A stretch of 49,830 bases of DNA from a virus (taxonomy: Duplodnaviria; Caudoviricetes): the IMG/VR virus record IMGVR_UViG_3300017778_000538, positions 1-49,830 of that record, one strand, 5' to 3'. Under the pieces are notes generated by a model. It ran no database searches. It was not told the DNA's origin and saw nothing but the letters and a program-made list of their open reading frames with translations. Every line of letters starts with the position of its first letter. Position 1 is the stretch's first letter. Positions 1 through 37,425 of the stretch are shown here, in pieces. The translations under genes were made by a program, and so were the position numbers.

Positions 1-64
1 CAAGGTAAGGGAGAGGGTTGGTACATATTGCAGTAACCGATTAGGCGACTTAAAAGATGCTGCA

Positions 65-247
65 ATGGCATTGTTAAAACCCGACACCAAGGGAACCCGC
101 ACTACGCTAGACTTTACTGCATCAATGACTAAGATATTCACTGCCCAAGAAAAGTCGGTGAAAGTAAAACAAGGCAGGGGCGACACCACTGCCAATGGCG
201 ACAATTACAAAAAGGCAGTCGCAGCATTTTGGGCGACTTATAAGTAA
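65..247 (+). CDS. Hypothetical phage protein, probably 5'-truncated by the window edge
   Basis: ORF ends at 247 and is followed directly by an intrinsic terminator; the true start is uncertain. Confidence 0.55.
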   Translation: MALLKPDTKGTRTTLDFTASMTKIFTAQEKSVKVKQGRGDTTANGDNYKKAVAAFWATYK

Positions 248-262
248 CCCCTAGACCACACC

Positions 263-293
263 AACCCGCACCTAGCAAGTGCGGGTTTTTTTT
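263..293 (+). terminator. Rho-independent terminator
   Basis: AACCCGCAC-ctagcaa-GTGCGGGTT hairpin running into a T8 tract. Confidence 0.9.
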
Positions 294-363
294 CGCCCTC
301 CAATTTGATACCAGTTATCTAGTGCGCGCGCGCCGCGTGTGCGTGGCTGACAAGGCTCTTAAA

Positions 364-386
364 TAGCGTCCCACGTACACGTGGAA
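364..386 (+). promoter_or_regulatory. 23-nt hairpin motif, copy 1
   Basis: TAGCGTCCCACGTACACGTGGAA; near-identical copies at 1031, 2382, 4551 and 12254. Confidence 0.75.
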
Positions 387-400
387 TTTAGACAAAACCA

Positions 401-925
401 TGTTCTATATGTAAACTAGAACAAGTATAGAATTACTGGACTTATACAACTAGACTAATAGAACAAGGCTATCATCTACCGTTCTCAGAACTCACACATT
501 AAAACTACGAAAGATAGAATCTGATTTTCGCCAATGATAGAAAACAGCGCAAAATCGTTTTTGTTCTAAAAAAAAAAGTAGAACAAGGTAAAGCGAGTAG
601 AACAGAATCCGCCTTATGAATCAACGACTTACAGCGTTTGTTCTAATGTTCTACGATTTATAGGTAAAGTGACCTGACAGCGCAATTTGTGTTTTGAAAA
701 AGTTGGCAACGCAAAAGCTTCGCAGCAAATGCAAAAAAGAACTCAGCCACCCCCCATATACCCAAAATCAGTAGAACATTAGAACAAACCAATACTTATT
801 AACATTATTAAAAATATATTTTATATATATGAGAGGGAGTTTCCGACTTCGCCTATTTTTTAAGCAGCCATTTCTGTTCTATATGTAAAATAGAACAAAG
901 TCAAAAAAGTAGAACAAATAGAACA
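401..925. repeat. TAGAACA heptamer array (iteron-like), candidate origin or packaging site
   Basis: 14 exact copies: + at 417, 459, 579, 598, 772, 780, 891, 910, 919; - at 401, 562, 639, 647, 875; non-coding; includes a perfect 19-bp inverted repeat 636-654/771-789. Confidence 0.85.
619..631 (+). promoter_or_regulatory. IHF consensus site
   Basis: AATCAACGACTTA matches WATCAANNNNTTR exactly and lies in the middle of the repeat array. Confidence 0.6.
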
Positions 926-962
926 AAACCTCCACACCATATAAAATACTCATACAACACCC

Positions 963-991
963 TTGACTCAAAGGTAAAGTTGTGTTATACT
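963..991 (+). promoter_or_regulatory. Sigma70-type early promoter P1
   Basis: TTGACT-17 nt-TATACT with an extended -10 TG. Confidence 0.85.
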
Positions 992-999
992 GGAATCTG

Positions 1000-1053
1000 A
1001 GTAGGGAAATAAGTCAGCAGACTCCTTACTTAGCGTCCCACGCACACGTGGGA
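1000..1053 (+). promoter_or_regulatory. Two-hairpin leader with motif copy 2 (1031-1053)
   Basis: AGTAGGG/CCTTACT plus AGTC/GACT stems, then TCCCACG-caca-CGTGGGA. Confidence 0.6.
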
Positions 1054-1086
1054 TTTACAGTTCAATTCAGTTTTATGGAGTACACA

Positions 1087-1356
1087 ATGAGCAAGCAATT
1101 TCAGCAACCACAGCAGGTCTTTGTGCTTATGCACACAACCAAGCAGGGCAACACAACAACCCACGAACCCGTGGGAGTCTATCTAGACAAAGAGATGGCA
1201 CTGTACGATTCATGGCTCTTGACCGATGAGGACTACCACTCACGCCGAGAAGATGACGTTGATGCCCAGTACCAATACGCACCCGCCGACTACTGGGTCA
1301 AAGACTCATACCAAGTCACCGAGCGATTCAATTCGTTGGTGGCAGAAAATGCTTGA
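1087..1356 (+). CDS. Hypothetical early protein
   Basis: Start moved to ATG 1087 (GGAG at 1077-1080); the longer ORF-track start overlaps the promoter. Confidence 0.75.
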   Translation: MSKQFQQPQQVFVLMHTTKQGNTTTHEPVGVYLDKEMALYDSWLLTDEDYHSRREDDVDAQYQYAPADYWVKDSYQVTERFNSLVAENA

Positions 1357-1395
1357 CAAGCAACAGAAACATTCAGGAATAACACAGGACATAAC

Positions 1396-1632
1396 ATGAG
1401 CAAAGAAACTAATCACACACCCGAATGTATGCACTGCGGTGAGTTGTACCCCACGAAGCGGTGGGCTCTTGGATACAAGATGTGCAAGACCTGCGGTGAG
1501 ACTGCGGCACTAGTGGCTAGGCGCAGTTGGACGGTGGTGCAGGAGTACACGAAGGGGAATTACCAATTCGTAACCAGCACATCAGCAGAGAATACTTTAA
1601 AGCAAACCAACCCTAAGAACATAAGGAACTAA
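1396..1632 (+). CDS. Small zinc-finger protein
   Basis: CMHC...CKTC motif; AGGA RBS. Confidence 0.75.
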   Translation: MSKETNHTPECMHCGELYPTKRWALGYKMCKTCGETAALVARRSWTVVQEYTKGNYQFVTSTSAENTLKQTNPKNIRN

Positions 1633-1634
1633 CC

Positions 1635-1877
1635 ATGACAATATCAAAGACACCATTAAACAAAGAGGAGTTAGCAGAGTGGAACAACACGATGGCGAAA
1701 CTCTTTGACATTATGAGAGACATGGACACAGCAGAGGCTATGAATTTGATGATGCACATGGTCGCGGGCACTGCGGTTGCGAACGGCGTCACTAAAGAGA
1801 ATCTCATGGAAGGGTTGGACGTTACCTACGACACTATGGAACTTAACTGGAATTTACATAATGGGGAGATGCACTGA
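1635..1877 (+). CDS. Hypothetical protein
   Basis: AAGGA RBS; tightly packed with neighbouring genes. Confidence 0.75.
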   Translation: MTISKTPLNKEELAEWNNTMAKLFDIMRDMDTAEAMNLMMHMVAGTAVANGVTKENLMEGLDVTYDTMELNWNLHNGEMH

Positions 1878-2293
1878 TGGGATACCGTTCAGACGTAGCG
1901 TACACGATACGCTTTAGAGGGCAGAAAGAGGACGACTTCTTTCTGTTCTTAGCCGAAGCCAAATCCAAGCCCGAACTGAAGTTGGCACTGGACGAGTGCG
2001 ACATAGACACCGTGCGCAAACGGATTAACTTCAACTGTGAGAGTATTAAATGGTATGAATCAGACCTTGGGGTACAGAGTCACACGGCGCTACTGGACTT
2101 GGCAGAGGAGTGGGCTGACCATCCATCCAATGCTGAAGACCTGATAAAGAACATCGCATCAAGCGGTCGTGCCATCGGGTATGCGTTCATTCGTATGGGT
2201 GAGGAAGATGATGACGTTGAACACAGACAGGGAGGGGAGTACGAACTGGACTGGGTTGGAGTGAGGAGAGAAATCATTACCGATTGGCTGTAG
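1877..2293 (+). CDS. Hypothetical phage early protein (MGYRSDV type)
   Basis: TGATG coupling and GGAG RBS. Confidence 0.8.
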   Translation: MGYRSDVAYTIRFRGQKEDDFFLFLAEAKSKPELKLALDECDIDTVRKRINFNCESIKWYESDLGVQSHTALLDLAEEWADHPSNAEDLIKNIASSGRAIGYAFIRMGEEDDDVEHRQGGEYELDWVGVRREIITDWL

Positions 2294-2313
2294 AAAATAC
2301 CTGAGTAAAAGGC

Positions 2314-2342
2314 TTGACACATATGTCAAGTTCTGTTATACT
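2314..2342 (+). promoter_or_regulatory. Sigma70-type early promoter P2 with an overlapping palindrome
   Basis: TTGACA-17 nt-TATACT with extended TG; CTTGACA-cata-TGTCAAG inverted repeat at 2313-2330 covers the -35 box. Confidence 0.9.
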
Positions 2343-2348
2343 TATGAC

Positions 2349-2404
2349 TGGTGGGAAGAGTTCTTTAACTCGAACACTATTTAGCGTACCACGTACACGT
2401 GGAA
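2349..2404 (+). promoter_or_regulatory. Two-hairpin leader with motif copy 3 (2382-2404)
   Basis: TGGTG/CACTA plus GAGTT/AACTC stems, then CCACG-taca-CGTGG. Confidence 0.6.
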
Positions 2405-2437
2405 TTTATTATTGGTAAGTTTACTGGAGAAAGCATC

Positions 2438-3367
2438 ATGAATATGGAATTACAGCAACCTGAGAATTTAATCTCATTGGCGACATCAGCGGTTCTCGTG
2501 AGCGTGGATGTCAATGTATGGTCGGCGACCAAGCAAGACCGTGGCATCAGCAATGAAGTCACAGCAAGCAAACACGCAGTGCAGAGTGCAGGGCGTTATG
2601 TCAAGAATCTCTTGGCTGACCATCCCAAGCACAAGGCGTTGGTCAACTATCGGCAGACTATCTATAACTGGGTCAAGCGGCGCACCTATCGGTGGAACAA
2701 CAGCCAAGACCTCTTGCCGAGCATTGACGTACCCAAGTTCAAGCAGGAGTATCACGAGCATGAGGCGGCGTTCAGAAGTCTATTGGTTGAATTCCTAGCC
2801 GACTACGACAACATCGTGAGCGACATGGCGTTCAAGCAAGGTGGCATGGGCGATATGTTCAACCGCAACGACTACCCCGACAAGGCAGAACTGGCATCTA
2901 AATTTGGCGTTCGTCTTTATGTAGCAGAAGTGCCAACCAACGATTTCCGTTGCAACATCGCTAAGGACATCGCTGATGATTTGTTTGAGTCATACAAGAG
3001 TCAAGCCGAGGAAATAGTAGCCCACGTGATGGTGGAACAGCAAACAAGGTTCGTGGACGTTATGAAATCCATCAGCCATTGTTGCGGTGTAGAGGAGACA
3101 GGCGTTGACGACAACACAGGAGAAACCAAGACCAAGAAGCGCAAGATATACGACACGACCATACAGAAAGCCAAGGAGATGTGCGAGACATTCAAGGGGT
3201 TCAATCTCAGTGGTAGCGAAGAGCTAGAAGAGGCTCGAGCATCATTGGAGAAAGCCCTAGACGGTGTAGACGCAACAGCGATTCGTGAAAGCGATGCCAT
3301 CCGTTCAGCAGTGAAGGATGATGTGGACAGTATCTTGTCCAAGTTCGGCAGTTTCCAATGCGTCTAA
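2438..3367 (+). CDS. DUF3150-like helical phage protein
   Basis: Start moved to ATG 2438 (GGAG RBS); size, sequence character and position before an AAA/vWA pair fit this family. Confidence 0.6.
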   Translation: MNMELQQPENLISLATSAVLVSVDVNVWSATKQDRGISNEVTASKHAVQSAGRYVKNLLADHPKHKALVNYRQTIYNWVKRRTYRWNNSQDLLPSIDVPKFKQEYHEHEAAFRSLLVEFLADYDNIVSDMAFKQGGMGDMFNRNDYPDKAELASKFGVRLYVAEVPTNDFRCNIAKDIADDLFESYKSQAEEIVAHVMVEQQTRFVDVMKSISHCCGVEETGVDDNTGETKTKKRKIYDTTIQKAKEMCETFKGFNLSGSEELEEARASLEKALDGVDATAIRESDAIRSAVKDDVDSILSKFGSFQCV

Positions 3368-3421
3368 GCACCCGCCAAGACGTACCAATCAGTTCATCAA
3401 TAGTAAAGAAAGTTTAATATC

Positions 3422-4549
3422 ATGTCTAAAGTTCAGTTTGTAAACACAGTGTCCATCAACGAATTGCGTAAAGTGATTCCCCTAATAGGTACAGAACTCA
3501 CGCCTGTCATACAGAGCGAACCCGGTTGTGGCAAGACCTCCCTGCTAACTATGATAGCCGCAGACAACGGCGACAAGTGGCGCAGCCCGAAGGATGGCAC
3601 AGGCATTGACGGTGACAAGTACGACTATGTGTATGTGGATTGTCCAGTGAAGGATATGTCAGACATTGGTATGACTATTCCCAACCATGCGTCCAAGACC
3701 CTTGAGTATTACGTGTCCGAGTTGTTCGCCTTGAACACAGGCAAGCCCAAGGTCATCTTGCTTGACGAGTTCATGAAGTCACCGAAGTTGCTGCAAGTAA
3801 TCTTTACCCGACTCATGCTAGAGCGGATGGTAGGTGATGTGGCACTACCCGAGAAGGATGGCTTGAAGTCCGTGGTGTTTGCGACATCTAACAATGCGAG
3901 CGATGGCGTGGGCGATTCGATGCTTGCCCATGCGGGTAATCGTGTATGCGTGATGCGTATGGCAAAGCCAACGGTGGATGAGTGGTTGCAGTGGGCAGGT
4001 GAGAACGGTATCTCTCGTGTGATTCGTGCGGGTGTATCGATGTTCCCTCGTTGCATGAAGTCATACACGGAAGGCGACCAAGCAGACAACCCATACATCT
4101 TCAAACCATCAATGACGAGTCTCTCATTCGTCAGCCCTCGTTCCTTGGCGAAGTGCGATGTGATTGTCAAGAACCGTGATGAGATTGGTGAGAACGCAAC
4201 ACGAGTTGCACTGGCGGGTACGGTGGGTGCGTCCTTTGCGGGTGACTTGGCTGCATTCCTAACGCTAGAGAAATCATTGGTTGATGTCAAGACTATCTGC
4301 AAGGACCCCGATGGTGTTGAGTTACCCAAAGACATCAGCGCCCAGTTGATGATTATGTTTCTGGCAGTAGATACATTGGCGACACAGGATGAACTGACCA
4401 AGTTCATGACGTTCGTTGAGCGTATCCCATCGTCCGAAGTACAGGGTGTGTTCTTCACCATGATGATGCGTAATGCCAAATCAATTCGCTTGGCGCGTAA
4501 CAACGTGAAGATTGCTGAGTGGGCTAAGAACAACCACGAGTTGTTCTGA
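3422..4549 (+). CDS. MoxR-like AAA+ ATPase
   Basis: Walker A EPGCGKT, Walker B ILLDE, sensor ATSN, GNR arginine finger, SPRS sensor 2. Confidence 0.9.
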   Translation: MSKVQFVNTVSINELRKVIPLIGTELTPVIQSEPGCGKTSLLTMIAADNGDKWRSPKDGTGIDGDKYDYVYVDCPVKDMSDIGMTIPNHASKTLEYYVSELFALNTGKPKVILLDEFMKSPKLLQVIFTRLMLERMVGDVALPEKDGLKSVVFATSNNASDGVGDSMLAHAGNRVCVMRMAKPTVDEWLQWAGENGISRVIRAGVSMFPRCMKSYTEGDQADNPYIFKPSMTSLSFVSPRSLAKCDVIVKNRDEIGENATRVALAGTVGASFAGDLAAFLTLEKSLVDVKTICKDPDGVELPKDISAQLMIMFLAVDTLATQDELTKFMTFVERIPSSEVQGVFFTMMMRNAKSIRLARNNVKIAEWAKNNHELF

Positions 4550-4550
4550 T

Positions 4551-4573
4551 TTAAGTACCACGGTGACGTGGGA
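4551..4573 (+). promoter_or_regulatory. 23-nt hairpin motif, copy 4
   Basis: TTAAGTACCACG-gtga-CGTGGGA in the 49-nt gap between the AAA and vWA genes; GNRA loop. Confidence 0.6.
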
Positions 4574-4598
4574 TTCTATTTAACCAAGGAGAAAGCAA

Positions 4599-5897
4599 AT
4601 GACTAAAGAAAGACAAGAGACACGCGTCAAGCGTGGGCATATCGCATTGATGAAGCACGCCGAGACTGCGCTGTACTCGGGCGTAATGCTCATGGGTACG
4701 ACTGCTGTCGAGGATGGGATTTCTACGGCATACACCGATGGGGTCAACAAGAAGTATGGGCGGCAGTTCCTCGAGGGTATCACTGAAGAACCCAAGGTGC
4801 GTGGGCTCATCCTCCATGAGAATCTCCATGTAGCTTTGAAGCAGGTGATGTATGGCAAGGCGATGTTCAAGGAGAGTCCAAAGATGGCAAACCTAGCTGC
4901 TGACTTTGTTGTCAACGACATCATTGTGAATATCACTGGGACTATCGGCGGCTCGACTGAGCGAGTAGTTCAGTTGCCCGATGGTGGGGTGTATGACGAG
5001 ATGTTTCATAACTGGAGCATGAGGGAAGTGTTTAACTATCTAAAGAAGAACGCCAAGCCCAAGGACAAACCAAAGGGCAAGGGCGGTCAGAAGGGCGGGC
5101 AAAGTAACGAACCACCCGAGGGTGGGAAGCAAGATAGCGATGGTGACGATGGTACTGAGTGGGAATCGGTAGAAGTCAACGGCAAGACCTATGACCTTTC
5201 TAACTCAGACGAACATGACTTTGACCTGAGCGATGTATCGCATGAGCAGTTGAAGGACATGAACGATGCGATTGACAGAGCGTTGCGTGAGGGCGGGATG
5301 TTGGCAGGGCGCATGGGTGCGAAGATGCCACGTGCTATCTCTGACTTGCTCGAACCTAAGATTGATTGGAAGGAAGTACTACGCGAGTTTGTTTCTTCAA
5401 CCATGAGAGGCAAAGATGAGTTCACATGGCGGCGTATGAACAAGCGTCAGATGGCTAATGATATCTACCTGCCAAGCATGGAGAACGAGACTATTGGTGA
5501 AATCATTGTGGCTATCGATACCTCGGGCTCGATTGGCTCTGCTGAGATTACTGAGTTCGCTACGGAACTGGTTTCAATCTGTGACGTTGTGCAACCTGAC
5601 AAGGTGCGGGTTCTTTGGTGGGACACCGAAGTGCATGGTGAGCAAGTCTTTGAGGAGAACTACACCGACATTGCCAAACTACTAAAGCCACTGGGCGGCG
5701 GTGGAACTAACGTGTCATGTGTCAGTGAGTACGTAAATAAGCAAAACCTGCAAGCCGAATGTGTGTTGGTGTTCACCGATGGGTATCTTGAGAGTGACAT
5801 CAAGTGGAATATCAACAGCCCAACGCTATGGATGATTACCCGTAACCGACACTTCGATGCCCCAACAGGTAAGAAAGTTGTGATTGACCGTGACTGA
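4599..5897 (+). CDS. Putative metallopeptidase with C-terminal vWA domain (DUF2201-like)
   Basis: TAYTDG and HENLH (HExxH); MIDAS elements DTSGS, GGGGT and VFTDG. Confidence 0.9.
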   Translation: MTKERQETRVKRGHIALMKHAETALYSGVMLMGTTAVEDGISTAYTDGVNKKYGRQFLEGITEEPKVRGLILHENLHVALKQVMYGKAMFKESPKMANLAADFVVNDIIVNITGTIGGSTERVVQLPDGGVYDEMFHNWSMREVFNYLKKNAKPKDKPKGKGGQKGGQSNEPPEGGKQDSDGDDGTEWESVEVNGKTYDLSNSDEHDFDLSDVSHEQLKDMNDAIDRALREGGMLAGRMGAKMPRAISDLLEPKIDWKEVLREFVSSTMRGKDEFTWRRMNKRQMANDIYLPSMENETIGEIIVAIDTSGSIGSAEITEFATELVSICDVVQPDKVRVLWWDTEVHGEQVFEENYTDIAKLLKPLGGGGTNVSCVSEYVNKQNLQAECVLVFTDGYLESDIKWNINSPTLWMITRNRHFDAPTGKKVVIDRD

Positions 5898-6159
5898 AGC
5901 TGAATACTTCAAGCAGTGCCACTTTGATAACCTAATAGCAAGGAGTGAATTTATGGTTGAACTAGATTTAATCGCAACCAATCGACACCGTATGGCTAGA
6001 GAGATAGCACAGGAGTTGATAGACCAACAGCGAGGATGGACAGGCAACGACCCATATGTTTATGCACTGAGGAAACTAGCAAACAACACACAGCAACCCC
6101 AGTTATGGCGCGATGTGTTGTCATATTTGGATGAACTTGAACTCACTAAAGGAGATTGA
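5884..6159 (+). CDS. Hypothetical protein
   Basis: Fills the gap between genes; start could be TTG 5884 or GTG 5890. Confidence 0.65.
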   Translation: MTVTEAEYFKQCHFDNLIARSEFMVELDLIATNRHRMAREIAQELIDQQRGWTGNDPYVYALRKLANNTQQPQLWRDVLSYLDELELTKGD

Positions 6160-6160
6160 T

Positions 6161-7201
6161 ATGTATGGATTGAAATACGCACGGCTGATGAACATTACAA
6201 AGACCGTAGCACCGTACCGTGGCAACGTAAATAGGTTTCCTATCGGACACCGTAGACACAACACCAAATACTTTCTTGTGCGAGAGGAGAACCACGAGAG
6301 GGTCTTTGACATCGTTATCGGCACAAATTGGTCTAGCAAAGAATTCACCAAGGAAGAGTACGAGGCGTTAGTTGATTCAGAGAAGGAACTCGTTCGGACG
6401 TATCCAGCGTATGACGGAAGCGGGGTAGTGCCTGATAAGTTCACGTACTTTAGGTACTACACGACACCCCACATCATTGGCGTGGTGCGTCCTGACAATA
6501 CCTTTGAGTTCACTACCGACAAGATGCACCAAGGCGTTCGCGTGGTGCTGAGTGGGTACTCACAGGGGTGGTTACATAGCGACTCACGCAGGGGTGGGAT
6601 TGTATATAAAGAGCGGCACGGCTTGTTTCATCCGATATACAAAGGTATGCGTGTGAACTGTGAATCTATGACGCCAACCGTACCGTATGTGGTGCAGAGC
6701 AGATACGTTGACCGCAAAGTAGGCAAGGAACTACTCGCGGGGTATGCGGATATGTTCAAGACGACTGAGGTGATGCTCAAGGCTATGGAGTGGAAGACTT
6801 TTGTAGACACCATGAAGGAAGTCGTAGATGAACACTTTGAAGGACGTAGGTTGACAATGAATTGGAATGATAGTGGTGGACGAATTAAAAACGATGAGTA
6901 CCTAGACCTAGCCAAAGAGTTGACAAACACAGCACCGCTTGATGCGTTCATGATGTTCACTCTAGCGTTTGACGTTGACCGTATGAGTTGGAATATACAG
7001 CAGGATAGCAGCCGTAGTTGGGCTGACACAGAACTACCACAGTTGTTCATGGCAGTCAAGCGTAGGTTCAGTAAGGAGATGTACAAGAAGACTCCTGATG
7101 TGTTCACTGACCATCCGCAGGTGATGGGCAGAAAGTACCCTGCGAACGAGTGGGGAGTAAGAGTTGAAGTGAATGGTAAAGAAGTGGAGCAATACTCATG
7201 A
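6161..7201 (+). CDS. Hypothetical protein
   Basis: Long ORF; start moved to ATG 6161 after AAGGAG. Confidence 0.85.
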   Translation: MYGLKYARLMNITKTVAPYRGNVNRFPIGHRRHNTKYFLVREENHERVFDIVIGTNWSSKEFTKEEYEALVDSEKELVRTYPAYDGSGVVPDKFTYFRYYTTPHIIGVVRPDNTFEFTTDKMHQGVRVVLSGYSQGWLHSDSRRGGIVYKERHGLFHPIYKGMRVNCESMTPTVPYVVQSRYVDRKVGKELLAGYADMFKTTEVMLKAMEWKTFVDTMKEVVDEHFEGRRLTMNWNDSGGRIKNDEYLDLAKELTNTAPLDAFMMFTLAFDVDRMSWNIQQDSSRSWADTELPQLFMAVKRRFSKEMYKKTPDVFTDHPQVMGRKYPANEWGVRVEVNGKEVEQYS

Positions 7202-7398: not shown

Positions 7399-8351
7399 CA
7401 GTAGAAAGATACTTCCTTGATGGGTACAGAGACGAAGCCCTTTACGATGAGTTGAAAGCCTCAGATACGTTCCCACTGGTGCGTGAACTCGAATTTAAGT
7501 ATGGGCTGAAAGTATTCCGCAAGATAACAACACGCACAGTACAGACCTACGACCAAGTACCTGCATGGATGATGTGCCATAAGAATGGTTTGGCTGTTGG
7601 TGTGGCGTACACCCACAACAAAGGAGGCAAGGACGCAGACCAACTAGAGTATTGTTTCCAGACACCATACTTTAGTAAGGAGCGTGGCAAGTCTACTTCT
7701 GATAAGGAGACTATGCGTAGTGCAAAAGTATCAGCACTCATGGCTGCGGTAAAACGCTACCATGTAATCCCTACCGCACAAGGATTAATGGATAGAAAAC
7801 TTGGCAGCTTTAGGTCTGCTAAGACTATCTTAAACCGAGGGCTAGGCGATACTAATAAACGCAATGATTTCACTGCGGAGGAAGTGCAAGTACTTTTAGC
7901 TAACTTACTAGGTAGAAACACTGATGGTAATTTCTTAGGAACACTACAAAATAAATGTATAGAAACGCTTGACAAATACGAAGAAGCCGATAGACTGATG
8001 CAGTTAAAAGTTGATGAAGCTAATCGCTTGTTCACTAACCCATTCTATGTAGTGGGCGTTGATGAGTTTGGTGACTTCATTATTGGTGCGTACAAAGCAA
8101 CAGACAAAACACAAGAGGACTATGAAGCCGTTATACCGCTTATGCGTTACCGCACTTACCAAGAAGTGCCTGACCTTATCCCTATCATGACTATGATAAA
8201 ACTAGCGTATGAAAATGCAGGTGAGTCAATCAAAGGTGGTTGCTTACCGCTTATTGATAAGTACAACGAGTCGCTTGATACGGTGTTCTTTTATGACAGG
8301 GGCGTTGACAGATACAACCAAACTTTTATGGTAACCCCATGCCCCATCTGA
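7395..8351 (+). CDS. Hypothetical protein
   Basis: 318-aa ORF with AGGAG RBS. Confidence 0.85.
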   Translation: MTVERYFLDGYRDEALYDELKASDTFPLVRELEFKYGLKVFRKITTRTVQTYDQVPAWMMCHKNGLAVGVAYTHNKGGKDADQLEYCFQTPYFSKERGKSTSDKETMRSAKVSALMAAVKRYHVIPTAQGLMDRKLGSFRSAKTILNRGLGDTNKRNDFTAEEVQVLLANLLGRNTDGNFLGTLQNKCIETLDKYEEADRLMQLKVDEANRLFTNPFYVVGVDEFGDFIIGAYKATDKTQEDYEAVIPLMRYRTYQEVPDLIPIMTMIKLAYENAGESIKGGCLPLIDKYNESLDTVFFYDRGVDRYNQTFMVTPCPI

Positions 8352-8722
8352 TTGGACATCTAAGCCCAGTCGTTCACCCAAAGAAGTGGGACTTAATACG
8401 TGTGCCTTGTCGCAAGATAACTGGCATCTATATAGTGTACGTGGCTGATGGGTTCCATCGTATGTACACCGAAGAAACTTTGCCTGATGAGTTGAAGGCG
8501 AAGTTCGCAATGATTCTTGCTTGTGGGAATCAGACTATGTTAGTAGAGCCTGAGAGCAGACTACAGAAGATGACGGTTTACGTTAATACACAATCACCCG
8601 AACTTGATGAGATTGGGTGGCGCGTATCGGAAACATATTTCTGCCTAGTCTTGGACAGGCTAACTTTGAGTTCACTGAAGGATGGGACGCTAAATGAAGA
8701 TGAAGCAAGCATTCAGCTTTGA
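8339..8722 (+). CDS. Hypothetical protein
   Basis: Overlapping co-oriented ORF in the operon. Confidence 0.7.
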   Translation: MPHLIGHLSPVVHPKKWDLIRVPCRKITGIYIVYVADGFHRMYTEETLPDELKAKFAMILACGNQTMLVEPESRLQKMTVYVNTQSPELDEIGWRVSETYFCLVLDRLTLSSLKDGTLNEDEASIQL

Positions 8723-12247: not shown

Positions 12248-12287
12248 TCAAGATAGCGTTCCATTACCACGTGGGACGCTATCTTGA
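12248..12287. promoter_or_regulatory. 16-bp hairpin containing motif copy 5 (12254-12276)
   Basis: TCAAGATAGCGTTCCA/TGGGACGCTATCTTGA with one G-U pair. Confidence 0.7.
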
Positions 12288-18762: not shown

Positions 18763-19074
18763 ATGCCACGGACATATAGTGAAGCTTTTTTGATTGAGTT
18801 GCACAAAGCCAAACCCACAAGGTCTGGCACTGCGTTGGCGCTCGTTTGTGTGGAGGCAAATCTCCCCGCAAAGTACGTTGCTGAAGCGTTGGATGTAACT
18901 CGCATGACGGTTTTCAGTTGGTTCCGTGGCAAATCTATTCGCCATAAAAACCTTCTTAAAGTCGAAGAATTTATGGATACCGTTGCGACAGATACCGCAG
19001 CGGGGTTACTGCCAGCACGTAGCACGGCAGCGGCTAAAAAATACATACAGGAGATGATGAGCAAGGAAATCTAA
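18763..19074 (+). CDS. HTH transcriptional regulator (Cro-like)
   Basis: VAEALDVTRMTVFSWFRG. Confidence 0.8.
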   Translation: MPRTYSEAFLIELHKAKPTRSGTALALVCVEANLPAKYVAEALDVTRMTVFSWFRGKSIRHKNLLKVEEFMDTVATDTAAGLLPARSTAAAKKYIQEMMSKEI

Positions 19075-21977: not shown

Positions 21978-22170
21978 AATAACTGAACCAGAGTGGGTGT
22001 TTCCGTTTCAGGGCATGGTGGTGGGTGATAGCTTCTTCATCCCTACCTTGCGCCTTGCGGAGATGATGTATGCCATAGACAGTGGAGCCAAGCGCGCTGG
22101 AGTCTTCGTAAAGTGCTATGTCACCGTAAAGGATAAGCACATCGGAGTACGCGCTTGGCGTGTTCGTTAA
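21961..22170 (+). CDS. Small conserved phage protein
   Basis: FPF..M.VGDSFF.P...GVRAWR pattern; last gene of the + arm. Confidence 0.8.
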   Translation: MMTPNEITEPEWVFPFQGMVVGDSFFIPTLRLAEMMYAIDSGAKRAGVFVKCYVTVKDKHIGVRAWRVR

Positions 22171-25100
22171 GGTTCTACGTCGTAGTCCTTGAAGGTATCT
22201 ATCATTCGGCTTTTTGCTAGGTTCTCGCGGAAAGCGTTTTCCCTAAGCATGGCCTCTCTGTCTGACCTAGTAAGGTCTTTATCCCTACGTATTTCGTTGT
22301 TTCTAGCGCGTAACGGATTTAGCTGCTGGTTAAGTTGTGTGTTGTACATCTTGACCACAGTAGCATACGTGGGGTGTTTATCTTTGTACTCAGCCAACTT
22401 GTCTGGATCATCTTTATAGGTATTAAGCACCTTTTCGATGTTCTTAATCTTAGTCTCAACTGAGCTAAATTGCCGAGCGTCGTAGTTTGACCGTGTTCCA
22501 AAGAACGAACCAAATAAAGGAATGTCAGTCTTAGGATCAAAATCCTTCTGCCCTTTGGTTAAGTCGTGCAGTCCATACGCAGTCTCACCAATACGAGCCA
22601 CACCGTCGATATAGCTGTTGGTAAAGAAGTGCAGGGTGCTTGGGCTGATATCAATCCCACCGTCCGTAGCGTCGTGCATAAACGCTGCCGCATCTTTCCA
22701 AGCCTCTGGAGTGCTGTCTTTGCCTGTGTATGCATCACCCAAACGGCGCTGGAATGTGCTGTTAATGTCTCTACCTAAGCCGTCTGTATTCATAGAGAAC
22801 TCTACGATCGGGCGCAAGAAGCTAGGCATGATTGAGTCAACAAAGAACTCCAACGGTTTTTCGCGTAGGGATATACGAGATACAGGGATTGGCATGAACG
22901 AATCCATAGCAATGGTTGTACCTATATTTATCAAGGCTGGTCCTAGAGGCTGCGAGCCCGCTACTACAGAAGCCATCTGAGACCCTGCTGCGGCAAACGC
23001 GCCACCACCAAATCCCCAAGGCAGTTGGAACACCAAAGGCTTTTTGAGCCCCATACCTTCCCAAATTGCGCGAGGTACATGGAAACGCGCATAGCGAGTC
23101 CACTGGTCCATATTGTCTGTAGCTACAGCGTTGCGTCCTAGGTCGTCATCATCCGAGAACATCTGAGCCATAGCGTATGCCATGATGCCCATCCCAGTTA
23201 GCGCCGCTGTTGTAATGCGGGCATTTTTCTGTAGCTGTTTAAAGTTCTTAATGTACTCAGCCTTTGCTGTTTCGTTAGCGGCAATATCAGGTGACAGGCG
23301 ATTGACCGCATCGCTAAGTTTCATGAACGCAGGGGCAAATGACTCTACCGCGCGCACCGCACCTGTGGCAGACGGACGGAAGAACATGAACATAGCGCCC
23401 ATGCCTTTGCCCCACTCGCCTACCTGCTCAAAGTTAGCAAGGTTCTTAGTAAAGACAGCGGCTTTTGTTTTGGCATCTTGCTCGCTCATGGTCTTGCTAA
23501 AGTTATTCTTAGCTATGCTATACGCAGAACCACGGCTAGCCAACTCAAACATGTCAGACCATGTGTCAAGTAACTTTTCTACGTCTTCTTTTTTTGTAAC
23601 AATGCCTGAAGCGCCAATGCTCTTGTTTAGCTGGTCAAAATTAGACTTCAGGGATATACCCTGCATGTACGAAACCATGCCGCCCTGACGAATAAACTCA
23701 ACCATATCCCGAATGTAGGGGTCTTTATCGGATAAGTTTTGTAAAGCCAAAAGCGACTTTTCATCGCCTTTCTTATAAAGCATGGCAACTTGCATTGCCT
23801 TGTAAAGCCCGGCTTTACCAACCACTTGCGCGGTTACATCCTTCAAGTAACGAGCAGCTTCTACTGGGCCCATTTCGCTTGCGCTAATGTTCCATGCGTT
23901 AGCCAGCGTATCCCGAACAAAGTTCATTGGAGCAAACTGATAGTTGTAGCGGGTGTGCATCTGCCCAAGACCACTTGTAATCTTGTTGGCGTAATCAACA
24001 AATACGTTCGTATCTTTGTAGGAGCGACGAATTGAATTCCGAAGCTTTTCATCCTGCACAACCAGAATATCAATGCTGCCGTCTTCGTTGTAATGAAAAA
24101 TAGTAGTTTCGCCTTTTAGATCAGCAAGGTCTACCGTATTACGCTCTTCAAACTTAATAGTCTGTTTAACGTATCCTTTTAAAGCATTTTGACCATATGG
24201 GTTCTTCTCTTTGTCATAGTCAAGAGAATTCTTAATAGCTTGGGTCAAGTTACGACGCCCAGCACGCATTGCAGCACGGGTAGCGTCTGTCATAGTTTGA
24301 AGAATAGGGTTGTTAGATACGCTGAACCGCCCATCCATTGTGCCGGGGCTCTCCTGTAGCTCTTTGCCATTGCCACCCATAGTATCAAAGTCAAGGTCTT
24401 CGTCTACTCGTTGAGGATTGGGTTTGCCTTTTAGTGGCACATAGTTTTCAAAACCATAAAACGCTACACGATTACTAACGGGCTGGGACCAGTAGTTAGC
24501 AAGTTTATTAAGCGACGTAGTTTCCTGATGGAGTTTTTGCAAAGCTTCCATAACCATCTTGATTTCAGTGGCCTGCGGATGAGTTTCCAACTGCTTACGA
24601 ATGTCCCTTGCGGCATTTAATTCAATGCCTGTCGCGTTGTATGACTCTGCATCAAAGTTAATATTAAACGGAACAGCCTCTCCGCCCATTGTTTTAGAAC
24701 GCGAGCTAGAGCCTAAAGGGTCTACGTACTTCATGTTTGGCTTTGGATATCCATCATTACCCAACACAATTTCACCCTTGGCATCTTTTTCAAGAACGAT
24801 GTCTTCTAATGCAATCCGCAACTGCTTAGCTTGAGCTACAGACATTTTGTTATTGTCAAGCAGCTTTATGATCTGCTCACGGCGCGCTGCAGCAATAGGC
24901 TTGAGTGGTACAGACAATAGGTACTTGACCATACGGCGCTCTGGCTCATGGACTGCTTCAAGTATCTTATGTAGTTCTTCTACAGCACGCTTGGCGGTGT
25001 AGCCTGCGCCTTTTGCAAATTCACCTACAGCTTGGTCAAGCATGGTAGCAGCGGGTTCAATGTACACATGATAGAAGTTACGCGCATCGCCAGTAGCCAG

Positions 25101-28100
25101 AATAATCTGCTCGTAGATGTTGTTCATGTAGTTTTTGCCAGCGCTTAGCCCTTTTATCAGCCCAGACATAGCTCGCTCTCGTTCCCAGTTTTTAATTGGG
25201 TAGCGGTCATCTGCAAAAAGACGCGCTATTTTTTGCCATCCATTGATTGTCCGTACTTCTTTTACTTTATTAGTAAAAGGCTCAGGAACTTCAGTCTCTT
25301 TAAGCGCATAGGCAGGATCGACTTCGCCAAGTTTAGGCACATGCAATTCAGCCTTGGCCTTCTTTTCAGCTTGATCTGCTTGCTTTTTCTCCTTACCTGA
25401 AAGCATTGGTAGGAAGATAGGCTCGGTAGGCTTAGCGAGAATATCGTCAAACGCCGCGAAGGTCTCCATCAAAAACTCAGGGGTGTACGAAACCTTTTTG
25501 TTTTTCGTAAACGCACGCCGACCAAAATTAATAATACTGGCAACTGCTATTTTAAAACCTGACCAAGCAGAACCATCTCTTGGCAGGATAGACTCTTCTA
25601 TACCTATAGGCTTACCAAGAAAGTTTAGTGCCTCAATAAATTTTTCGTTTTTGTTTAGCTCTGTAGATATCTCTGCAGTAACTGTGGCATCGCGCAGATC
25701 GTCCTGTAAAACTTTATCAGATAGGGAGTACCCAACAAATTCAAATAAGTTTTTGTACGCCTCTGGGTGGTCAGTTTCAAGCATCGGACGTGTAATGTCC
25801 ATGATTTTCTGCAAGTGCTCCACCCCTTTAAGCTGTTGAGGCGTTAAAGATTTGCGGTTGCCATATAAGTATTCGTTTATTACCTTAACCGTTCCTGCGT
25901 GTACAAATTCATGCAGTAAAGTATGATTAGATAGTCCTTCCTGTGTAATAAGAATGGTATCTGTCTTAGGGTCGTACTGCGCCAAGTCATCGTTAATCTT
26001 AGACGAGTCAACCAATTTAATTTTTGTGTTTAACTTTAACCCATTCAAAGCTATAGCTACAGAGCCCTGAAGTTTTTTATACGCATTTGTGCCTTGGGTT
26101 CCGCCAAGGGTAGTAAGGTACTGAAGAACCCCGGGGGCGTCCCCATTCATAATCATTTCAATTACGGCAGGGGGGAGTAGCTTATCTCCAGTCAGCGGGG
26201 ACACAACACGAGCATGCTCTTCACGGGCTTTTTTATCTTTGGCTTGTTGCGCTAAAGACTCAATACGTACTTTTTCTTTTCGGTCAAGGGTATTTTGTAG
26301 TTCGCGTTTCTGCCCTTCCGTGAACTCGCTACTATCTTCAATCAGTTTTACACCTAGCTTAGCAAAGCCTACATCCTGCTGTATACCAGCATTGTTTGTA
26401 ACTTCACGGTCATAAGTTTTTTTCTGGCCTTCAGTTAAGTCTTGCCAGCGTGGGAACCGCACCCCGAACAACCTGCTGTATTCAGCGCGGTTTTCTTCAT
26501 AATGGTTTACCTTAACACGATCTTGGTCAGATATGTTTTCTTTCTCCCTACCACCAATTTTTTGCAAGTATTCCTGCAGCGCCTTAGCCGCTTTCCGATG
26601 CTCATTGCGCCCGCTGCCGCCTTGTGTGATGTTTCCAAAGTAAACATCCTTCATATGAGGGGGAAAATTCTTTGTGTACTCTGGCAAGAAACGTAGTTCG
26701 GGGCCATGCTTATCTAACGCAGCCTCAGCAGTGAGTAACTTACCCAATGCTTTTTTGTGTTCTTCTTGTAGCTTGATTTCTTCGGGACTTGCTACCATAG
26801 CGTCGCCGCCATCATCAGGTAACTCGTCAATTTGATTCTCAATGGCCTTTAGCCCCGCAGCAGCATCATCATGCTGTTTAATAAGTTCTAGGCGTCTGGC
26901 GTTGGATTCTTCTGCGCTTTTGTTTACTTCATCACGTGTATCGTTATAAAGTTTTGTGTCGGCTTCAGAGATGTCGTACTTTCTTGGTGTACGCCCTAAT
27001 GACTCGTCGTAGGCTTTTTGGCGTTCTTCCTCTTCCCGCTTCTCAACTTTACCGGCCTGCTCCATAGCTCCCGCTACGTCCGTGCCTTTGTATGCAGGGG
27101 TTGTATCTTGAGTTTCAGCGGTAGCCTGTGAACCTTCTTTAATAAGTTTCTCAACTGGAAGGTAGCCTTCTTTAGTACGCTTAGCGCTAAGTTTTCCGCT
27201 TTCAGTCACACCTAACCCACTTAGCATGTCGGCTAAGTATTTAGATTTTTTTATGTAAGCCTTGCTATCAGCGCCGTTATCCATCGCTATTTCTACAAGC
27301 TCATTCCTGCGGCGATTGATTTCGGCCTGTTGAACTTCGGAGAGATCGGCAATAGTCTTAGGCTTGAGCGCTTCGTCTTTTTGCTGGGTTTGAGAAGTTG
27401 GAGGTTTTATTTGTTCATTTTTAGATACTACCCCCAACTTTTTACCCGCATCAAGAATTTTTATTTTTTCTTCATCCGTTAAATTAACATCGTTCTTTAT
27501 TAGTTCCAAGAAATCAGCATTAGCTAAATCAATAGGAGCAAAAGGCCATGCCTCATTCCAACCGGCATTTTTTTGTTCTTCTCTAGCAAGTTGATTTACT
27601 GTGGCTGCGGACGTTTGTTGTCCTTTCGTTTCTGTTTTGACGGTTTCAGTGGTTTCATTGCCATCGGTTGTGGTTCCTTGTAGTGTTTCGGTAACGGGTA
27701 GTCCCGCTGTTTGTGTTTCATCAGTAGTAACTGGTATCTCAGAGGCAGGTGGCGCTTCTTCGCCAAGCTGTTGGGTTGCAGCTTTAAACGCGGCAGTAAA
27801 CTCAGGAGTGTCTGGGAGCGTCTGGTCTTCAGGCATACCCGCAACACTTGTCGAAGCGCGCTTGAGTTGCTCCTCGGTCTGATTTAGTTCTGTTTCACGT
27901 TGCTCTTTAATTGAGTTAATAATCTTGTTAGAGAGGTTAGTACGAACCCCACCCACCGCGCCGGGCGCAACTGCCATAGCAATAGATGCCGCAGCAGTGT
28001 CCACATATTCTTTGACTGCCGCAGCATCGGTTAGGGATAGGCTCGCGCCATAGCGTTCAGCAATAGTTTGAATCTCTTCAGCGGGAATCTGCTTAGTACC

Positions 28101-29027
28101 TGTAACGGCTATGCGTTTGCCAATGTCCAGCGCCAAGCTATTGAGGGTCTTTTCCCCAATTTTCAAAGAGTCAAGACCAATTTTATTGACAAAGTAATCC
28201 GCAACGCCGTGCACAATAGCAGCAGGGACTATTCGGGCTAACTCAACTTCATCAACGCTCTTACCTTGTTTTTCGGCTTCTTCAATAGCCCGTCCAGTGA
28301 CTTCGCCAGTGCCGTACATACCAGCTTGGGCCACCATACCTGTTGTAGCGCCTATTGATTTACCCTTAGACTTGACGTATTGTTTGCCAGCAGCCTTACT
28401 TGCATCTGCAAATACTCGTTTAGCCTCAGCCTCTACAAATTTAGCGCCAGCTTCCTCTGCAATTTGTTTTGCAGCGGCTTTGGTAGCGCCTGCGGCAATG
28501 GCTTTCTTAGCCTCAGCCTCAATAACATTTTCAGCGGCTTCTTTGATGCCCTGTTTAATTAAAGTTTTACCTACAACGCCAGCCGCCGCGCCGGGAATAG
28601 AAGCAACACCGCCACCAGCAACCGCGCCAATACCCATGAAAGCAAGTGTTTCGGCAATGTTTCCTACACCAGCGCCAATTTGGTACGGTAGCCAGTCAGT
28701 CAAAACTGTACCAATACCTTTGTCAAAGGCGTTGCTAAAGGAGTCAGATTCTTTACCGATTTGACGGGCTTTGCCAGCTACAGCGGTGTCCATACCGCCT
28801 TTAACTAAGTCTTTATCACCAGACAGTAGCCCAGCAAATGCCTTGGCATTACCAAAACTTTCTTGAATTTGTCCGGGTATGTTGCCTATGCCACGGAAAA
28901 AATCACTGCCCCCTGCCTCGGCTTGGGGCGCTACAGCCACTTCCTTTGGTGCTTCCGCAGCATCAAACTGATCGAAGAAATTCCCCTTTGCTGGGGTTTC
29001 GTCGAACTTATCAAAGAAATTAGCCAT
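22167..29027 (-). CDS. Giant internal virion/ejection protein, polyvalent-type, with a zincin motif and an LPD38-like C-terminus
   Basis: 2286 aa, last gene of the late operon; LLHEFVH followed by a downstream E; hydrophobic C-terminal region; N-terminal NFFDxFD repeats. Confidence 0.75.
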   Translation of the reverse strand: MANFFDKFDETPAKGNFFDQFDAAEAPKEVAVAPQAEAGGSDFFRGIGNIPGQIQESFGNAKAFAGLLSGDKDLVKGGMDTAVAGKARQIGKESDSFSNAFDKGIGTVLTDWLPYQIGAGVGNIAETLAFMGIGAVAGGGVASIPGAAAGVVGKTLIKQGIKEAAENVIEAEAKKAIAAGATKAAAKQIAEEAGAKFVEAEAKRVFADASKAAGKQYVKSKGKSIGATTGMVAQAGMYGTGEVTGRAIEEAEKQGKSVDEVELARIVPAAIVHGVADYFVNKIGLDSLKIGEKTLNSLALDIGKRIAVTGTKQIPAEEIQTIAERYGASLSLTDAAAVKEYVDTAAASIAMAVAPGAVGGVRTNLSNKIINSIKEQRETELNQTEEQLKRASTSVAGMPEDQTLPDTPEFTAAFKAATQQLGEEAPPASEIPVTTDETQTAGLPVTETLQGTTTDGNETTETVKTETKGQQTSAATVNQLAREEQKNAGWNEAWPFAPIDLANADFLELIKNDVNLTDEEKIKILDAGKKLGVVSKNEQIKPPTSQTQQKDEALKPKTIADLSEVQQAEINRRRNELVEIAMDNGADSKAYIKKSKYLADMLSGLGVTESGKLSAKRTKEGYLPVEKLIKEGSQATAETQDTTPAYKGTDVAGAMEQAGKVEKREEEERQKAYDESLGRTPRKYDISEADTKLYNDTRDEVNKSAEESNARRLELIKQHDDAAAGLKAIENQIDELPDDGGDAMVASPEEIKLQEEHKKALGKLLTAEAALDKHGPELRFLPEYTKNFPPHMKDVYFGNITQGGSGRNEHRKAAKALQEYLQKIGGREKENISDQDRVKVNHYEENRAEYSRLFGVRFPRWQDLTEGQKKTYDREVTNNAGIQQDVGFAKLGVKLIEDSSEFTEGQKRELQNTLDRKEKVRIESLAQQAKDKKAREEHARVVSPLTGDKLLPPAVIEMIMNGDAPGVLQYLTTLGGTQGTNAYKKLQGSVAIALNGLKLNTKIKLVDSSKINDDLAQYDPKTDTILITQEGLSNHTLLHEFVHAGTVKVINEYLYGNRKSLTPQQLKGVEHLQKIMDITRPMLETDHPEAYKNLFEFVGYSLSDKVLQDDLRDATVTAEISTELNKNEKFIEALNFLGKPIGIEESILPRDGSAWSGFKIAVASIINFGRRAFTKNKKVSYTPEFLMETFAAFDDILAKPTEPIFLPMLSGKEKKQADQAEKKAKAELHVPKLGEVDPAYALKETEVPEPFTNKVKEVRTINGWQKIARLFADDRYPIKNWERERAMSGLIKGLSAGKNYMNNIYEQIILATGDARNFYHVYIEPAATMLDQAVGEFAKGAGYTAKRAVEELHKILEAVHEPERRMVKYLLSVPLKPIAAARREQIIKLLDNNKMSVAQAKQLRIALEDIVLEKDAKGEIVLGNDGYPKPNMKYVDPLGSSSRSKTMGGEAVPFNINFDAESYNATGIELNAARDIRKQLETHPQATEIKMVMEALQKLHQETTSLNKLANYWSQPVSNRVAFYGFENYVPLKGKPNPQRVDEDLDFDTMGGNGKELQESPGTMDGRFSVSNNPILQTMTDATRAAMRAGRRNLTQAIKNSLDYDKEKNPYGQNALKGYVKQTIKFEERNTVDLADLKGETTIFHYNEDGSIDILVVQDEKLRNSIRRSYKDTNVFVDYANKITSGLGQMHTRYNYQFAPMNFVRDTLANAWNISASEMGPVEAARYLKDVTAQVVGKAGLYKAMQVAMLYKKGDEKSLLALQNLSDKDPYIRDMVEFIRQGGMVSYMQGISLKSNFDQLNKSIGASGIVTKKEDVEKLLDTWSDMFELASRGSAYSIAKNNFSKTMSEQDAKTKAAVFTKNLANFEQVGEWGKGMGAMFMFFRPSATGAVRAVESFAPAFMKLSDAVNRLSPDIAANETAKAEYIKNFKQLQKNARITTAALTGMGIMAYAMAQMFSDDDDLGRNAVATDNMDQWTRYARFHVPRAIWEGMGLKKPLVFQLPWGFGGGAFAAAGSQMASVVAGSQPLGPALINIGTTIAMDSFMPIPVSRISLREKPLEFFVDSIMPSFLRPIVEFSMNTDGLGRDINSTFQRRLGDAYTGKDSTPEAWKDAAAFMHDATDGGIDISPSTLHFFTNSYIDGVARIGETAYGLHDLTKGQKDFDPKTDIPLFGSFFGTRSNYDARQFSSVETKIKNIEKVLNTYKDDPDKLAEYKDKHPTYATVVKMYNTQLNQQLNPLRARNNEIRRDKDLTRSDREAMLRENAFRENLAKSRMIDTFKDYDVEP

Positions 29028-29028
29028 G

Positions 29029-33657: not shown

Positions 33658-33658
33658 A

Positions 33659-35755: not shown

Positions 35756-35773
35756 GGCTCATTTTCCCATGAA

Positions 35774-37413: not shown

Positions 37414-37425
37414 ATTTTTTCCTTT

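What the first reader, a model, noticed from the sequence alone, without database searches (positions are those of the whole stretch)
963..2404. Two early promoters share an identical layout: -10 box, interrupted hairpin, then the motif exactly 40 nt downstream
Seen: the P1 -10 ends at 991 and the motif starts at 1031; the P2 -10 ends at 2342 and the motif starts at 2382. The 39 intervening bases differ in sequence, yet both fold into a lower stem, a purine-rich bulge or internal loop, an upper stem and a 4-nt loop (1000-1030; 2349-2379). Established: HK022 put RNA is a two-stem structure just downstream of both early promoters. Inference: conserved structure and spacing without sequence identity suggests a functional two-hairpin nascent RNA.
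Basis: partly seen in the sequence, partly recalled or inferred. Interest (0 to 1): 0.8.

Follow-up and report, generated by a model that had tools for sequence, protein, structure and literature searches.

The report
Phage leader hairpin plus DNA palindrome
Both predicted early promoters of an uncultured phage are followed by a conserved hairpin that likely shields the start of the message from decay, and then by a mirror-symmetric DNA word, repeated through the early genes in both orientations, that is likely a docking site for a still unidentified phage protein rather than half of an anti-termination RNA.

Summary
The layout is real, but it is two elements, not one put-like RNA. Hairpin 1 is conserved (mean z -2.1 in 69 related leaders, +0.2 in 77 controls) and begins at the predicted +1 in 66 of 69, as 5'-terminal stabilising stem-loops do; its loops and length vary. 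The 'motif' is one of 8 CCAC-N6-GTGG copies, all in bases 371-5125, 4 inside genes. Across 42 related loci the spacer is 6 nt in 219 sites against 0-6 for spacers 1-5, 7 and 8. Its outer TAG occurs mirrored (CTA) in 30 of 178 non-leader sites, so the word reads both ways, and related phages swap the palindrome at the same places, even inside a gene. That points to a protein-bound DNA site. Spacing is 38-41 nt in 68 of 81 leaders, not exactly 40, and longer in other lineages. put's defining features (adjacent long stems) are not met. The reader protein was not found; nothing is shown experimentally. The scan reported this arrangement before on other genomes (e1-9743487, e1-9720051).

The parts
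963..991 (+). P1, predicted sigma70 promoter (TTGACT, 17 nt, extended -10 TG-N-TATACT); 963-978 is a TTGAC-N6-GTAAA dyad
   Evidence: conserved in relatives
999..1031 (+). Hairpin 1 of P1; first pair is the predicted +1 (G999)
   Evidence: start site inferred, not mapped
1031..1057 (+). Dyad site at P1: outer TAG 1031-1033, core CCAC-N6-GTGG 1038-1051 (predicted +40 to +53)
1077..1089 (+). GGAG ribosome site and ATG (1087) of the first gene after P1
   Evidence: sequence
2314..2342 (+). P2, predicted sigma70 promoter (TTGACA, 17 nt, TG-N-TATACT); 2314-2329 is a TTGAC-N6-GTCAA dyad
2350..2378 (+). Hairpin 1 of P2; first pair is the predicted +1 (G2350)
2382..2408 (+). Dyad site at P2: outer TAG 2382-2384, core 2389-2402
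2426..2440 (+). GGAG ribosome site and ATG (2438) of the 309-aa gene distantly related to a DUF3150-labelled phage protein
364..390 (+). Dyad site (core 371-384) without hairpin 1, downstream of a terminator (263-296) and 4 nt upstream of a weak -35-like hexamer (389)
1161..1181 (-). Dyad site inside the first gene, outer element mirrored (CTA at 1179-1181)
1451..1464 (.). Dyad core inside the 78-aa Cys-rich gene
3015..3035 (+). Dyad site (TAG 3015, core 3022-3035) inside the 309-aa gene
4558..4578 (-). Dyad site between the ATPase and the metallopeptidase/vWA gene, outer element mirrored (CTA at 4576-4578)
5112..5125 (.). Dyad core inside the acidic linker of the vWA gene; relatives carry their own palindrome type here
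12248..12287 (.). Fully symmetric version (TAG on the left, CTA on the right, one core mismatch; 17-bp arms, 6-nt centre) before the replication genes

Best explanation
Each predicted early promoter is followed by two separate elements: a conserved RNA hairpin that starts at the predicted first transcribed base and likely protects the message from 5'-end-dependent decay, and a fixed-spacer palindrome that is likely a DNA site for a dimeric phage protein, which would turn early transcription down. Shown here: the hairpin's conservation and position, and the palindrome's fixed spacer, two orientations, in-gene copies, restriction to the early arm and lineage-specific letters. Inferred: start sites at 999 and 2350; shielding from RppH and RNase E; a phage-encoded reader whose specificity changes between lineages; and that a protein bound at about +33 to +60 stalls polymerase at about +20 to +30, close enough to hinder the next initiation, which would explain why the distance stays short and fairly constant. 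Own odds: two separate elements 0.8; stabiliser role of hairpin 1 0.6; protein-bound DNA site 0.75; repression as that protein's job 0.45.
For: Hairpin 1: mean z -2.14 in 69 leaders against +0.17 in 77 control promoter leaders; 82% of cells paired, 4 of 7 pairs with changes on both sides and frequent G-U in 25 P2 orthologues; the 8th base after -10 is a purine in 66 of 69 and paired in 66 of 69, against 21% after shuffling, and mean pairing probability rises from 0.27-0.53 at bases 6-7 to 0.97 at base 8; the stem base is kept while the spacing runs 45, 70 and 73 nt in three close relatives. RppH and RNase E need single-stranded 5' ends (PMC3997798, passages). Palindrome: 8 copies in 371-5125 (0.16 expected), none with spacers 1-5, 7, 8, none after 5125; 219 N6 sites in 42 loci, 115 in ORFs, A-C type flank mismatches 43 against 7 G-U; mirrored flank in 30 of 178 non-leader sites, background about 1.4%, in 18 of 42 loci; arrays in 53 of 55 and 35 of 44 related loci with lineage-specific letters; the in-gene vWA site switches with genome type and changes the encoded residues; copies sit 4-5 nt upstream of -35 hexamers.
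Against: No start site, half-life or binding was measured. No reader protein was identified. All 34 flank-bearing leader sites have one orientation (34 left, 0 right of 40). At leader copies the third flanking pair is G-U in 43 and A-U in 15 of 69 with no A-C, and 41 of 69 have 5 or more T in the next 8 bases, as an RNA hairpin or attenuator would. One-mismatch cores are about twice as often U-G (43, 47) as C-A (23, 18). Most DNA-binding proteins, phage repressors included, are poor roadblocks (PMC10310618, passages). RppH loss affects only about 10% of E. coli mRNAs. Spacing of 38-41 nt despite saturated sequence is tighter than a plain stabiliser needs. The 69 leaders fall into only 26 clusters at 75% identity, so counts are not independent.
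Confidence: 0.6

Rival explanations
1. The two hairpins form one nascent RNA that binds RNA polymerase and suppresses pausing or termination, like HK022 put.
For: Same layout after both promoters in relatives, spacing 38-41 nt in 68 of 81 leaders; purine-rich 5' strand conserved; a 21-kb rightward gene block with no phage RNA polymerase among the proteins scanned.
Against: Stem 2 is a short palindrome that occurs inverted, in genes and alone; 7-10 unpaired nt between stems in 51 of 65, 1 nt in 3 of 65, against adjacent stems in put; apical loops 3-16 nt and no fixed register; no strong intrinsic terminator on the + strand in 999-22000, only weak candidates; three relatives keep the site after a promoter with a short ORF instead of hairpin 1 (L063, L065, L085).
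Confidence: 0.08
2. The palindrome works as RNA: a weak hairpin plus U-tract that pauses or attenuates transcription after about 65 nt, or a hairpin read by an RNA-binding protein beside the ribosome site.
For: Hairpin 2 averages -9.5 kcal/mol, G-U compatible flank, T-rich tail in 41 of 69; the terminator scan flags 2389, 4558 and 6583; the 12248-12287 copy has two U-G pairs and folds at -27 kcal/mol.
Against: Spacer never varies (219 N6 against 0 N7 or N8); mirrored copies and C-A tolerant flanks; some in-gene copies fold no better than shuffles (1451, 3022); the pair between the flank and the G-U pair is broken in 35 of 69.
Confidence: 0.15
3. The palindromes are protein-bound DNA sites with a job other than transcription control (marking the first-entering arm for entry, protection, replication or exclusion of kin), and the fixed position behind the promoters reflects a duplicated promoter cassette.
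For: Most sites are far from promoters, about half inside ORFs, in both orientations; no tyrosine integrase in 5 of 5 complete relatives, so classical lysogenic immunity is doubtful; the Cluster O authors drew the same conclusion for their dyad repeats (PMC4351075).
Against: A site follows both strong promoters at a centre distance of 48.5-62.5 bp from -10 in 18 of 20 divergent leaders and sits 4-5 nt upstream of -35 hexamers elsewhere; intergenic sites lie before ribosome sites.
Confidence: 0.17

Closest known systems
5'-terminal stabilising stem-loops of bacterial mRNA (ompA, papA type; reviewed in PMC3997798, passages read)
   Same: Stem begins at the predicted +1, structure kept while sequence, loops and length vary.
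   Different: Start site and half-life effect are not measured; here the hairpin is tied to a DNA dyad at a near-fixed distance.
17-bp dyad repeats of Cluster O mycobacteriophages (PMC4351075, section 8 and passages read)
   Same: Fixed-spacer inverted repeat, many copies, intergenic and in genes, no orientation, non-integrating phage, predicted dimeric reader, function unknown.
   Different: Here fewer copies (8-16), concentrated on the early arm, one behind each strong promoter, a conserved outer TAG/CTA element, and letters that change between lineages.
Stoperators of Cluster A mycobacteriophages (as described in PMC4351075)
   Same: Many repressor-type sites through transcribed regions, proposed to stop elongation.
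   Different: Stoperators are asymmetric and oriented with transcription in temperate phages; these are dyads in both orientations and no integrase was found.
PeSL cassettes of T4-type phages RB49/phi1 (PMC2839356, parts 1-3 of 6 read)
   Same: Repeated module of strong sigma70 promoter, stem-loop and ribosome site in front of variable small genes.
   Different: PeSL stem-loops mostly overlap or precede the promoter and terminate upstream transcription, about 50 per genome; here two cassettes with the hairpin in the transcript and a separate dyad array.
HK022 put RNA (PMC9378689, parts 1-2 of 9 and passages read)
   Same: Two predicted stems within about 70 nt, putL directly after its promoter.
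   Different: put has two long stems meeting at G35, a triplex and essential conserved bases; putR is about 270 nt from its start; here stem 2 is a short dyad that also occurs inverted and alone.
Rfam freshwater-2 (RF02980)
   Same: Hairpins followed by a U-rich stretch and ribosome site; weak hit at 4529-4601.
   Different: 27.3 bits against a gathering score of 49.9, E 0.43, carried largely by the ribosome-site part; no hit at P1 or P2.

Membership tests
HK022 put RNA | Two long stems joined directly at one bridging base, about 70 nt in all | tested here: not met
   7-10 unpaired nt between stems in 51 of 65 leaders; stem 2 is 5-8 bp against put
HK022 put RNA | Sequence or structure similarity to putL/putR | tested here: inconclusive
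   Model R1 gave no match at E<=1 in HK022 28000-38000; no put model was available to search the other way
HK022 put RNA | Both stems always together, in the sense direction | tested here: not met
   The motif occurs without hairpin 1 and mirrored
HK022 put RNA | Suppresses pausing/termination through the beta' zinc-binding domain | not testable with these tools
   Needs transcription assays
5'-terminal stabilising stem-loop | Stem starts at or within 1-2 nt of the 5' end | tested here: inconclusive
   Met for the predicted +1 in 66 of 69, but start sites are not mapped; only contigs were available
5'-terminal stabilising stem-loop | Structure conserved, sequence and length free | tested here: met
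5'-terminal stabilising stem-loop | Lengthens mRNA half-life | not testable with these tools
   Needs half-life measurement
Dyad operator array (Cluster O type) | Fixed-spacer inverted repeat, many copies, in and between genes, no fixed orientation | tested here: met
Dyad operator array (Cluster O type) | Bound by a dimeric DNA-binding protein | tested here: inconclusive
   No reader identified among three candidates examined; binding itself not testable
Cluster A stoperators | Asymmetric site oriented with transcription | tested here: not met
   Dyad core; flank left in 52 and mirrored in 30 of 178 non-leader sites
Cluster A stoperators | Temperate phage with immunity repressor | tested here: inconclusive
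   No PF00589 integrase in 5 of 5 complete relatives; serine integrases and plasmid-type lysogeny not tested
PeSL cassette | Strong sigma70 promoter + stem-loop + ribosome site repeated before variable genes | tested here: met
   Two copies per genome in 28 loci
PeSL cassette | Stem-loop placed to terminate upstream transcription; tens of copies; recombination between copies | tested here: not met
   Hairpin lies inside the new transcript; two copies; recombination not tested
Rfam freshwater-2 | Score at or above the gathering threshold | tested here: not met
   27.3 of 49.9 bits at 4529-4601; none in the window or 13 loci

The most novel reading that the evidence does not exclude
A large group of non-integrating aquatic phages uses a private, fast-switching protein-DNA code on its early arm: a two-part dyad whose outer TAG/CTA is shared and whose inner letters are lineage-specific. 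One site is fixed about 46 bp into each early transcript so that the bound protein jams the promoter from downstream, shutting off own early genes or those of same-type superinfecting phages, while the 5' hairpin keeps already made message alive.
Probability: 0.25. Interest if true: 0.65.

Novelty: new variant of a known kind. Interest (0 to 1): 0.38.

Why it matters
It removes a tempting put-like antiterminator candidate and shows how a DNA dyad can pose as a covarying RNA hairpin; spacer invariance and mirrored flanks tell them apart. What remains is a promoter-hairpin-dyad cassette shared by dozens of uncultured phages. If the reader protein is found, the lineage-specific sites give a natural set of orthogonal protein-DNA pairs and a test for the open question of what dyad arrays in non-integrating phages (as in Cluster O) do.

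Tried and rejected
Rfam: nothing at gathering score in the window or 13 loci except one tRNA; no CRISPR-repeat family among 3 weak hits in 1-6000, so a solitary-repeat reading was dropped. A boxA/boxB (nut-like) reading, recalled from memory, was dropped because the loop varies and the site occurs inverted. Reader candidates: the HTH_3 protein 18763-19074 keeps nearly the same recognition helix across CCAC, CCGT, CTGT and TCAC genomes (23 relatives), so it is unlikely to carry the changing specificity; the 201-aa 'gene A' upstream of the window (model pLDDT 89) had no Foldseek match at E<=0.001 and best VIA Z 6.5; the fast-evolving 6113-7201 protein (pLDDT 92) had no PDB match at E<=0.001, best VIA Z 4.9, and only uncharacterised or unnamed viral look-alikes; Atlas features pointed to DUF932 (a lead only). 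A per-family identity test gave gene A +10.5 and the 8339-8722 family +9.5 points for same-type pairs, but other families swung to -9, so it is inconclusive. Helical phasing of the spacing was not seen (36, 38-41, 45-47, 55, 67-75, 92). Two sequencing runs held only small shares as contigs and could not show start sites. The one hit in bacterial genomes is a 7.6-kb contig in a MAG and gives no host. No cultured phage matches the P1 cassette. Literature: no paper for 'freshwater-2'+'RNA motif' or for the four-term freshwater palindrome query; 6 supplementary files of PMC10690425 had no match, 3 were not searched; the supplement of PMC5737381 could not be read, so a listing of this leader there is not excluded.

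Full report
Setting. The window is a 49.8-kb piece of a tailed phage: a rightward block from 1087 to 21977 (small ORFs, ATPase, metallopeptidase/vWA, DNA polymerase, exonuclease, helicase, primase) faces a leftward block. Complete relatives are 60-65 kb. No phage RNA polymerase turned up among the 23 and 32 proteins scanned, and P1 and P2 are the best sigma70 matches in bases 1-6000. The host is unknown. The label 'freshwater' comes from earlier scan notes on look-alike genomes, not from a test of mine.

Observation. The 39 bases between are 13 of 39 identical while promoter and motif are 24 of 29 and 24 of 27 identical. Both fold as interrupted hairpins (z -2.86 and -2.49). A protein-based scan gave 57 related loci and a promoter-pattern scan 135. 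Of 158 distinct promoter leaders in them, 81 have a palindrome within 130 nt (the palindrome list was chosen after seeing the data). In a more distant set (44 of the 80 loci, the rest being contigs already held) the site centre lies 48.5-62.5 bp from -10 in 18 of 20 leaders and 75 and 81 in two; the window has 53. So the spacing is constrained but not exact.

Hairpin 1 is RNA and starts at the predicted +1. In the 69 leaders spaced 36-41 the region folds with mean z -2.14, against +0.17 for 77 promoter leaders without the palindrome. In 25 P2 orthologues 82% of stem cells pair, 4 of 7 pairs change on both sides, and G-U is common; a joint P1+P2 alignment pairs less well (71.5%) because registers differ, and RNAalifold did not recover this stem there. 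The 8th base after -10 is a purine in 66 of 69, mostly after a pyrimidine, which fits a start site (my knowledge of sigma70 starts). It is paired in 66 of 69 against 21% after shuffling, and pairing probability jumps to 0.97 there. The sense strand folds better than the antisense in 50 of 69. Apical loops run from 3 to 16 nt, and three close relatives keep the stem base at spacings 45, 70 and 73. These are the marks of a 5'-terminal stem-loop; RppH and RNase E need single-stranded 5' ends (PMC3997798, passages). The 69 leaders form 26 clusters at 75% identity, so they are not 69 independent cases. In some distant P2 leaders the hairpin is weak or absent.

The 'motif' is a DNA dyad. My first regex showed eight CCAC..GTGG hits, all with six bases between; earlier scan notes made me test this properly. 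In the window CCAC-N6-GTGG occurs 8 times, all in 371-5125 (0.16 expected), 4 inside genes, never with spacers 1-5, 7 or 8. In 42 loci there are 219 distinct N6 sites against 3, 2, 3, 6, 1, 0, 0 for those spacers (N9 16, N14 11), 115 inside ORFs by a crude caller; flank mismatches are A-C type 43 times and G-U 7 times, and both C-to-T on the left and G-to-A on the right are tolerated above background. In the window 1161 and 4558 are such inverted copies, which the covariance model also scores best on the minus strand, and 12248-12287 has both flanks. Arrays are the top spaced palindrome in 53 of 55 loci (L041 and L055 were misses) and pass p<1e-7 in 35 of 44 distant loci, with lineage-specific letters (CCAC-N6, CCGT-N6, CTGT-N6, TCAC-N6, CTGA-N7, GGGA-N2 and others). 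In five longer records they cluster on the early arm, with a few outliers. At the same place inside the vWA gene five genomes each carry their own type, changing the residues. The copy at 371 follows a terminator and lies 4 nt before a -35-like hexamer, a geometry seen again in three relatives. Covariation of stem 2 is therefore explained by whole-site switching between lineages.

Results against this reading. All 34 flank-bearing leader sites face one way. At leader copies the outer pair is G-U or A-U in 58 of 69 with no A-C, and 41 of 69 have a T-rich tail; one-mismatch cores favour U-G about twofold. The leader copies may thus also fold as RNA. No reader protein was found: the HTH protein's recognition helix does not follow palindrome type, two fast-evolving early proteins gave confident models without a known match, and a family-wise identity test was inconclusive. 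Most DNA-binding proteins are poor roadblocks (PMC10310618, passages).

Comparison with put. put RNAs are about 70 nt with two long stems meeting at G35; putR lies about 270 nt from its start site (PMC9378689). Here 7-10 unpaired nt separate the stems in 51 of 65 leaders, stem 2 occurs alone and inverted, the model finds nothing in the HK022 early region, and the + strand from 999 to 22000 has only weak terminator candidates; Rho-dependent stops cannot be excluded. Closer analogues are 5'-terminal stabilisers, the unexplained dyad repeats of Cluster O mycobacteriophages (PMC4351075) and PeSL promoter cassettes (PMC2839356). No Rfam family fits.

Mechanism. Most likely host sigma70 polymerase starts at 999 and 2350, the first 30 nt fold at once and shield the 5' end, and a dimeric phage protein later binds the dyads. 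At the promoter-proximal sites (+33 to +60) it would stall polymerase at about +20 to +30 (LacI stalled it 7 nt before lacO in the put study) and hinder re-initiation, which would explain the short, fairly constant distance. Every functional step is inferred. No tyrosine integrase was found in 5 of 5 complete relatives, so early shut-off or exclusion of kin is likelier than lysogenic immunity, and a non-transcriptional role remains open.

Verdict. Observation confirmed; interpretation partly supported. New variant of known kinds, not found in the searches listed under Tried and rejected, though unread supplements (PMC5737381, three files of PMC10690425) may list the leader. The scan has reported the same arrangement on other genomes. 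Interest 0.38.

Noticed in passing
window 963-978 and 2314-2329: The -35 region of both promoters is itself a dyad (TTKAC-N6-GTMAA), conserved in relatives; a pattern holding it matches about 420 stretches of the viral collection, many in unrelated phages. Possible second operator or a general trait of strong phage promoters.
   Followed up: partly
window 12248-12287: 17-bp-arm inverted repeat, the fully symmetric form of the site, between the HTH-DUF3310 gene and the replication genes; folds at -27 kcal/mol. Conservation in relatives not checked.
   Followed up: partly
window 400-940: AT-rich non-coding stretch with repeated TAGAACA words, a 24-nt direct repeat (401, 875) and a 31-nt inverted repeat (636-666, 759-789); candidate origin.
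   Followed up: no
window 65-247; L006 2340-2987 and 3206-3811: Tandem paralogues of a 200-230 aa protein with no Pfam family open the early arm; 612 homologues; confident model without known fold match.
   Followed up: partly
window 6113-7201: 362-aa protein that diverges to 25-40% identity where neighbours keep 70-85%; confident model, no solved relative; Atlas features suggest DUF932.
   Followed up: partly
window 325-384: GC-rich CGCGCG run and a one-mismatch core (333-346) that can pair with the 371 site; a similar GC run precedes the matching site in relatives.
   Followed up: no
L063, L065, L085 (about 75-92 nt after -10): A promoter is followed by a short hydrophobic-looking ORF, and the dyad persists inside it without hairpin 1.
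   Followed up: partly
window 22167-29027 (-): 2286-aa protein with an LPD38 (large polyvalent protein) domain.
   Followed up: no
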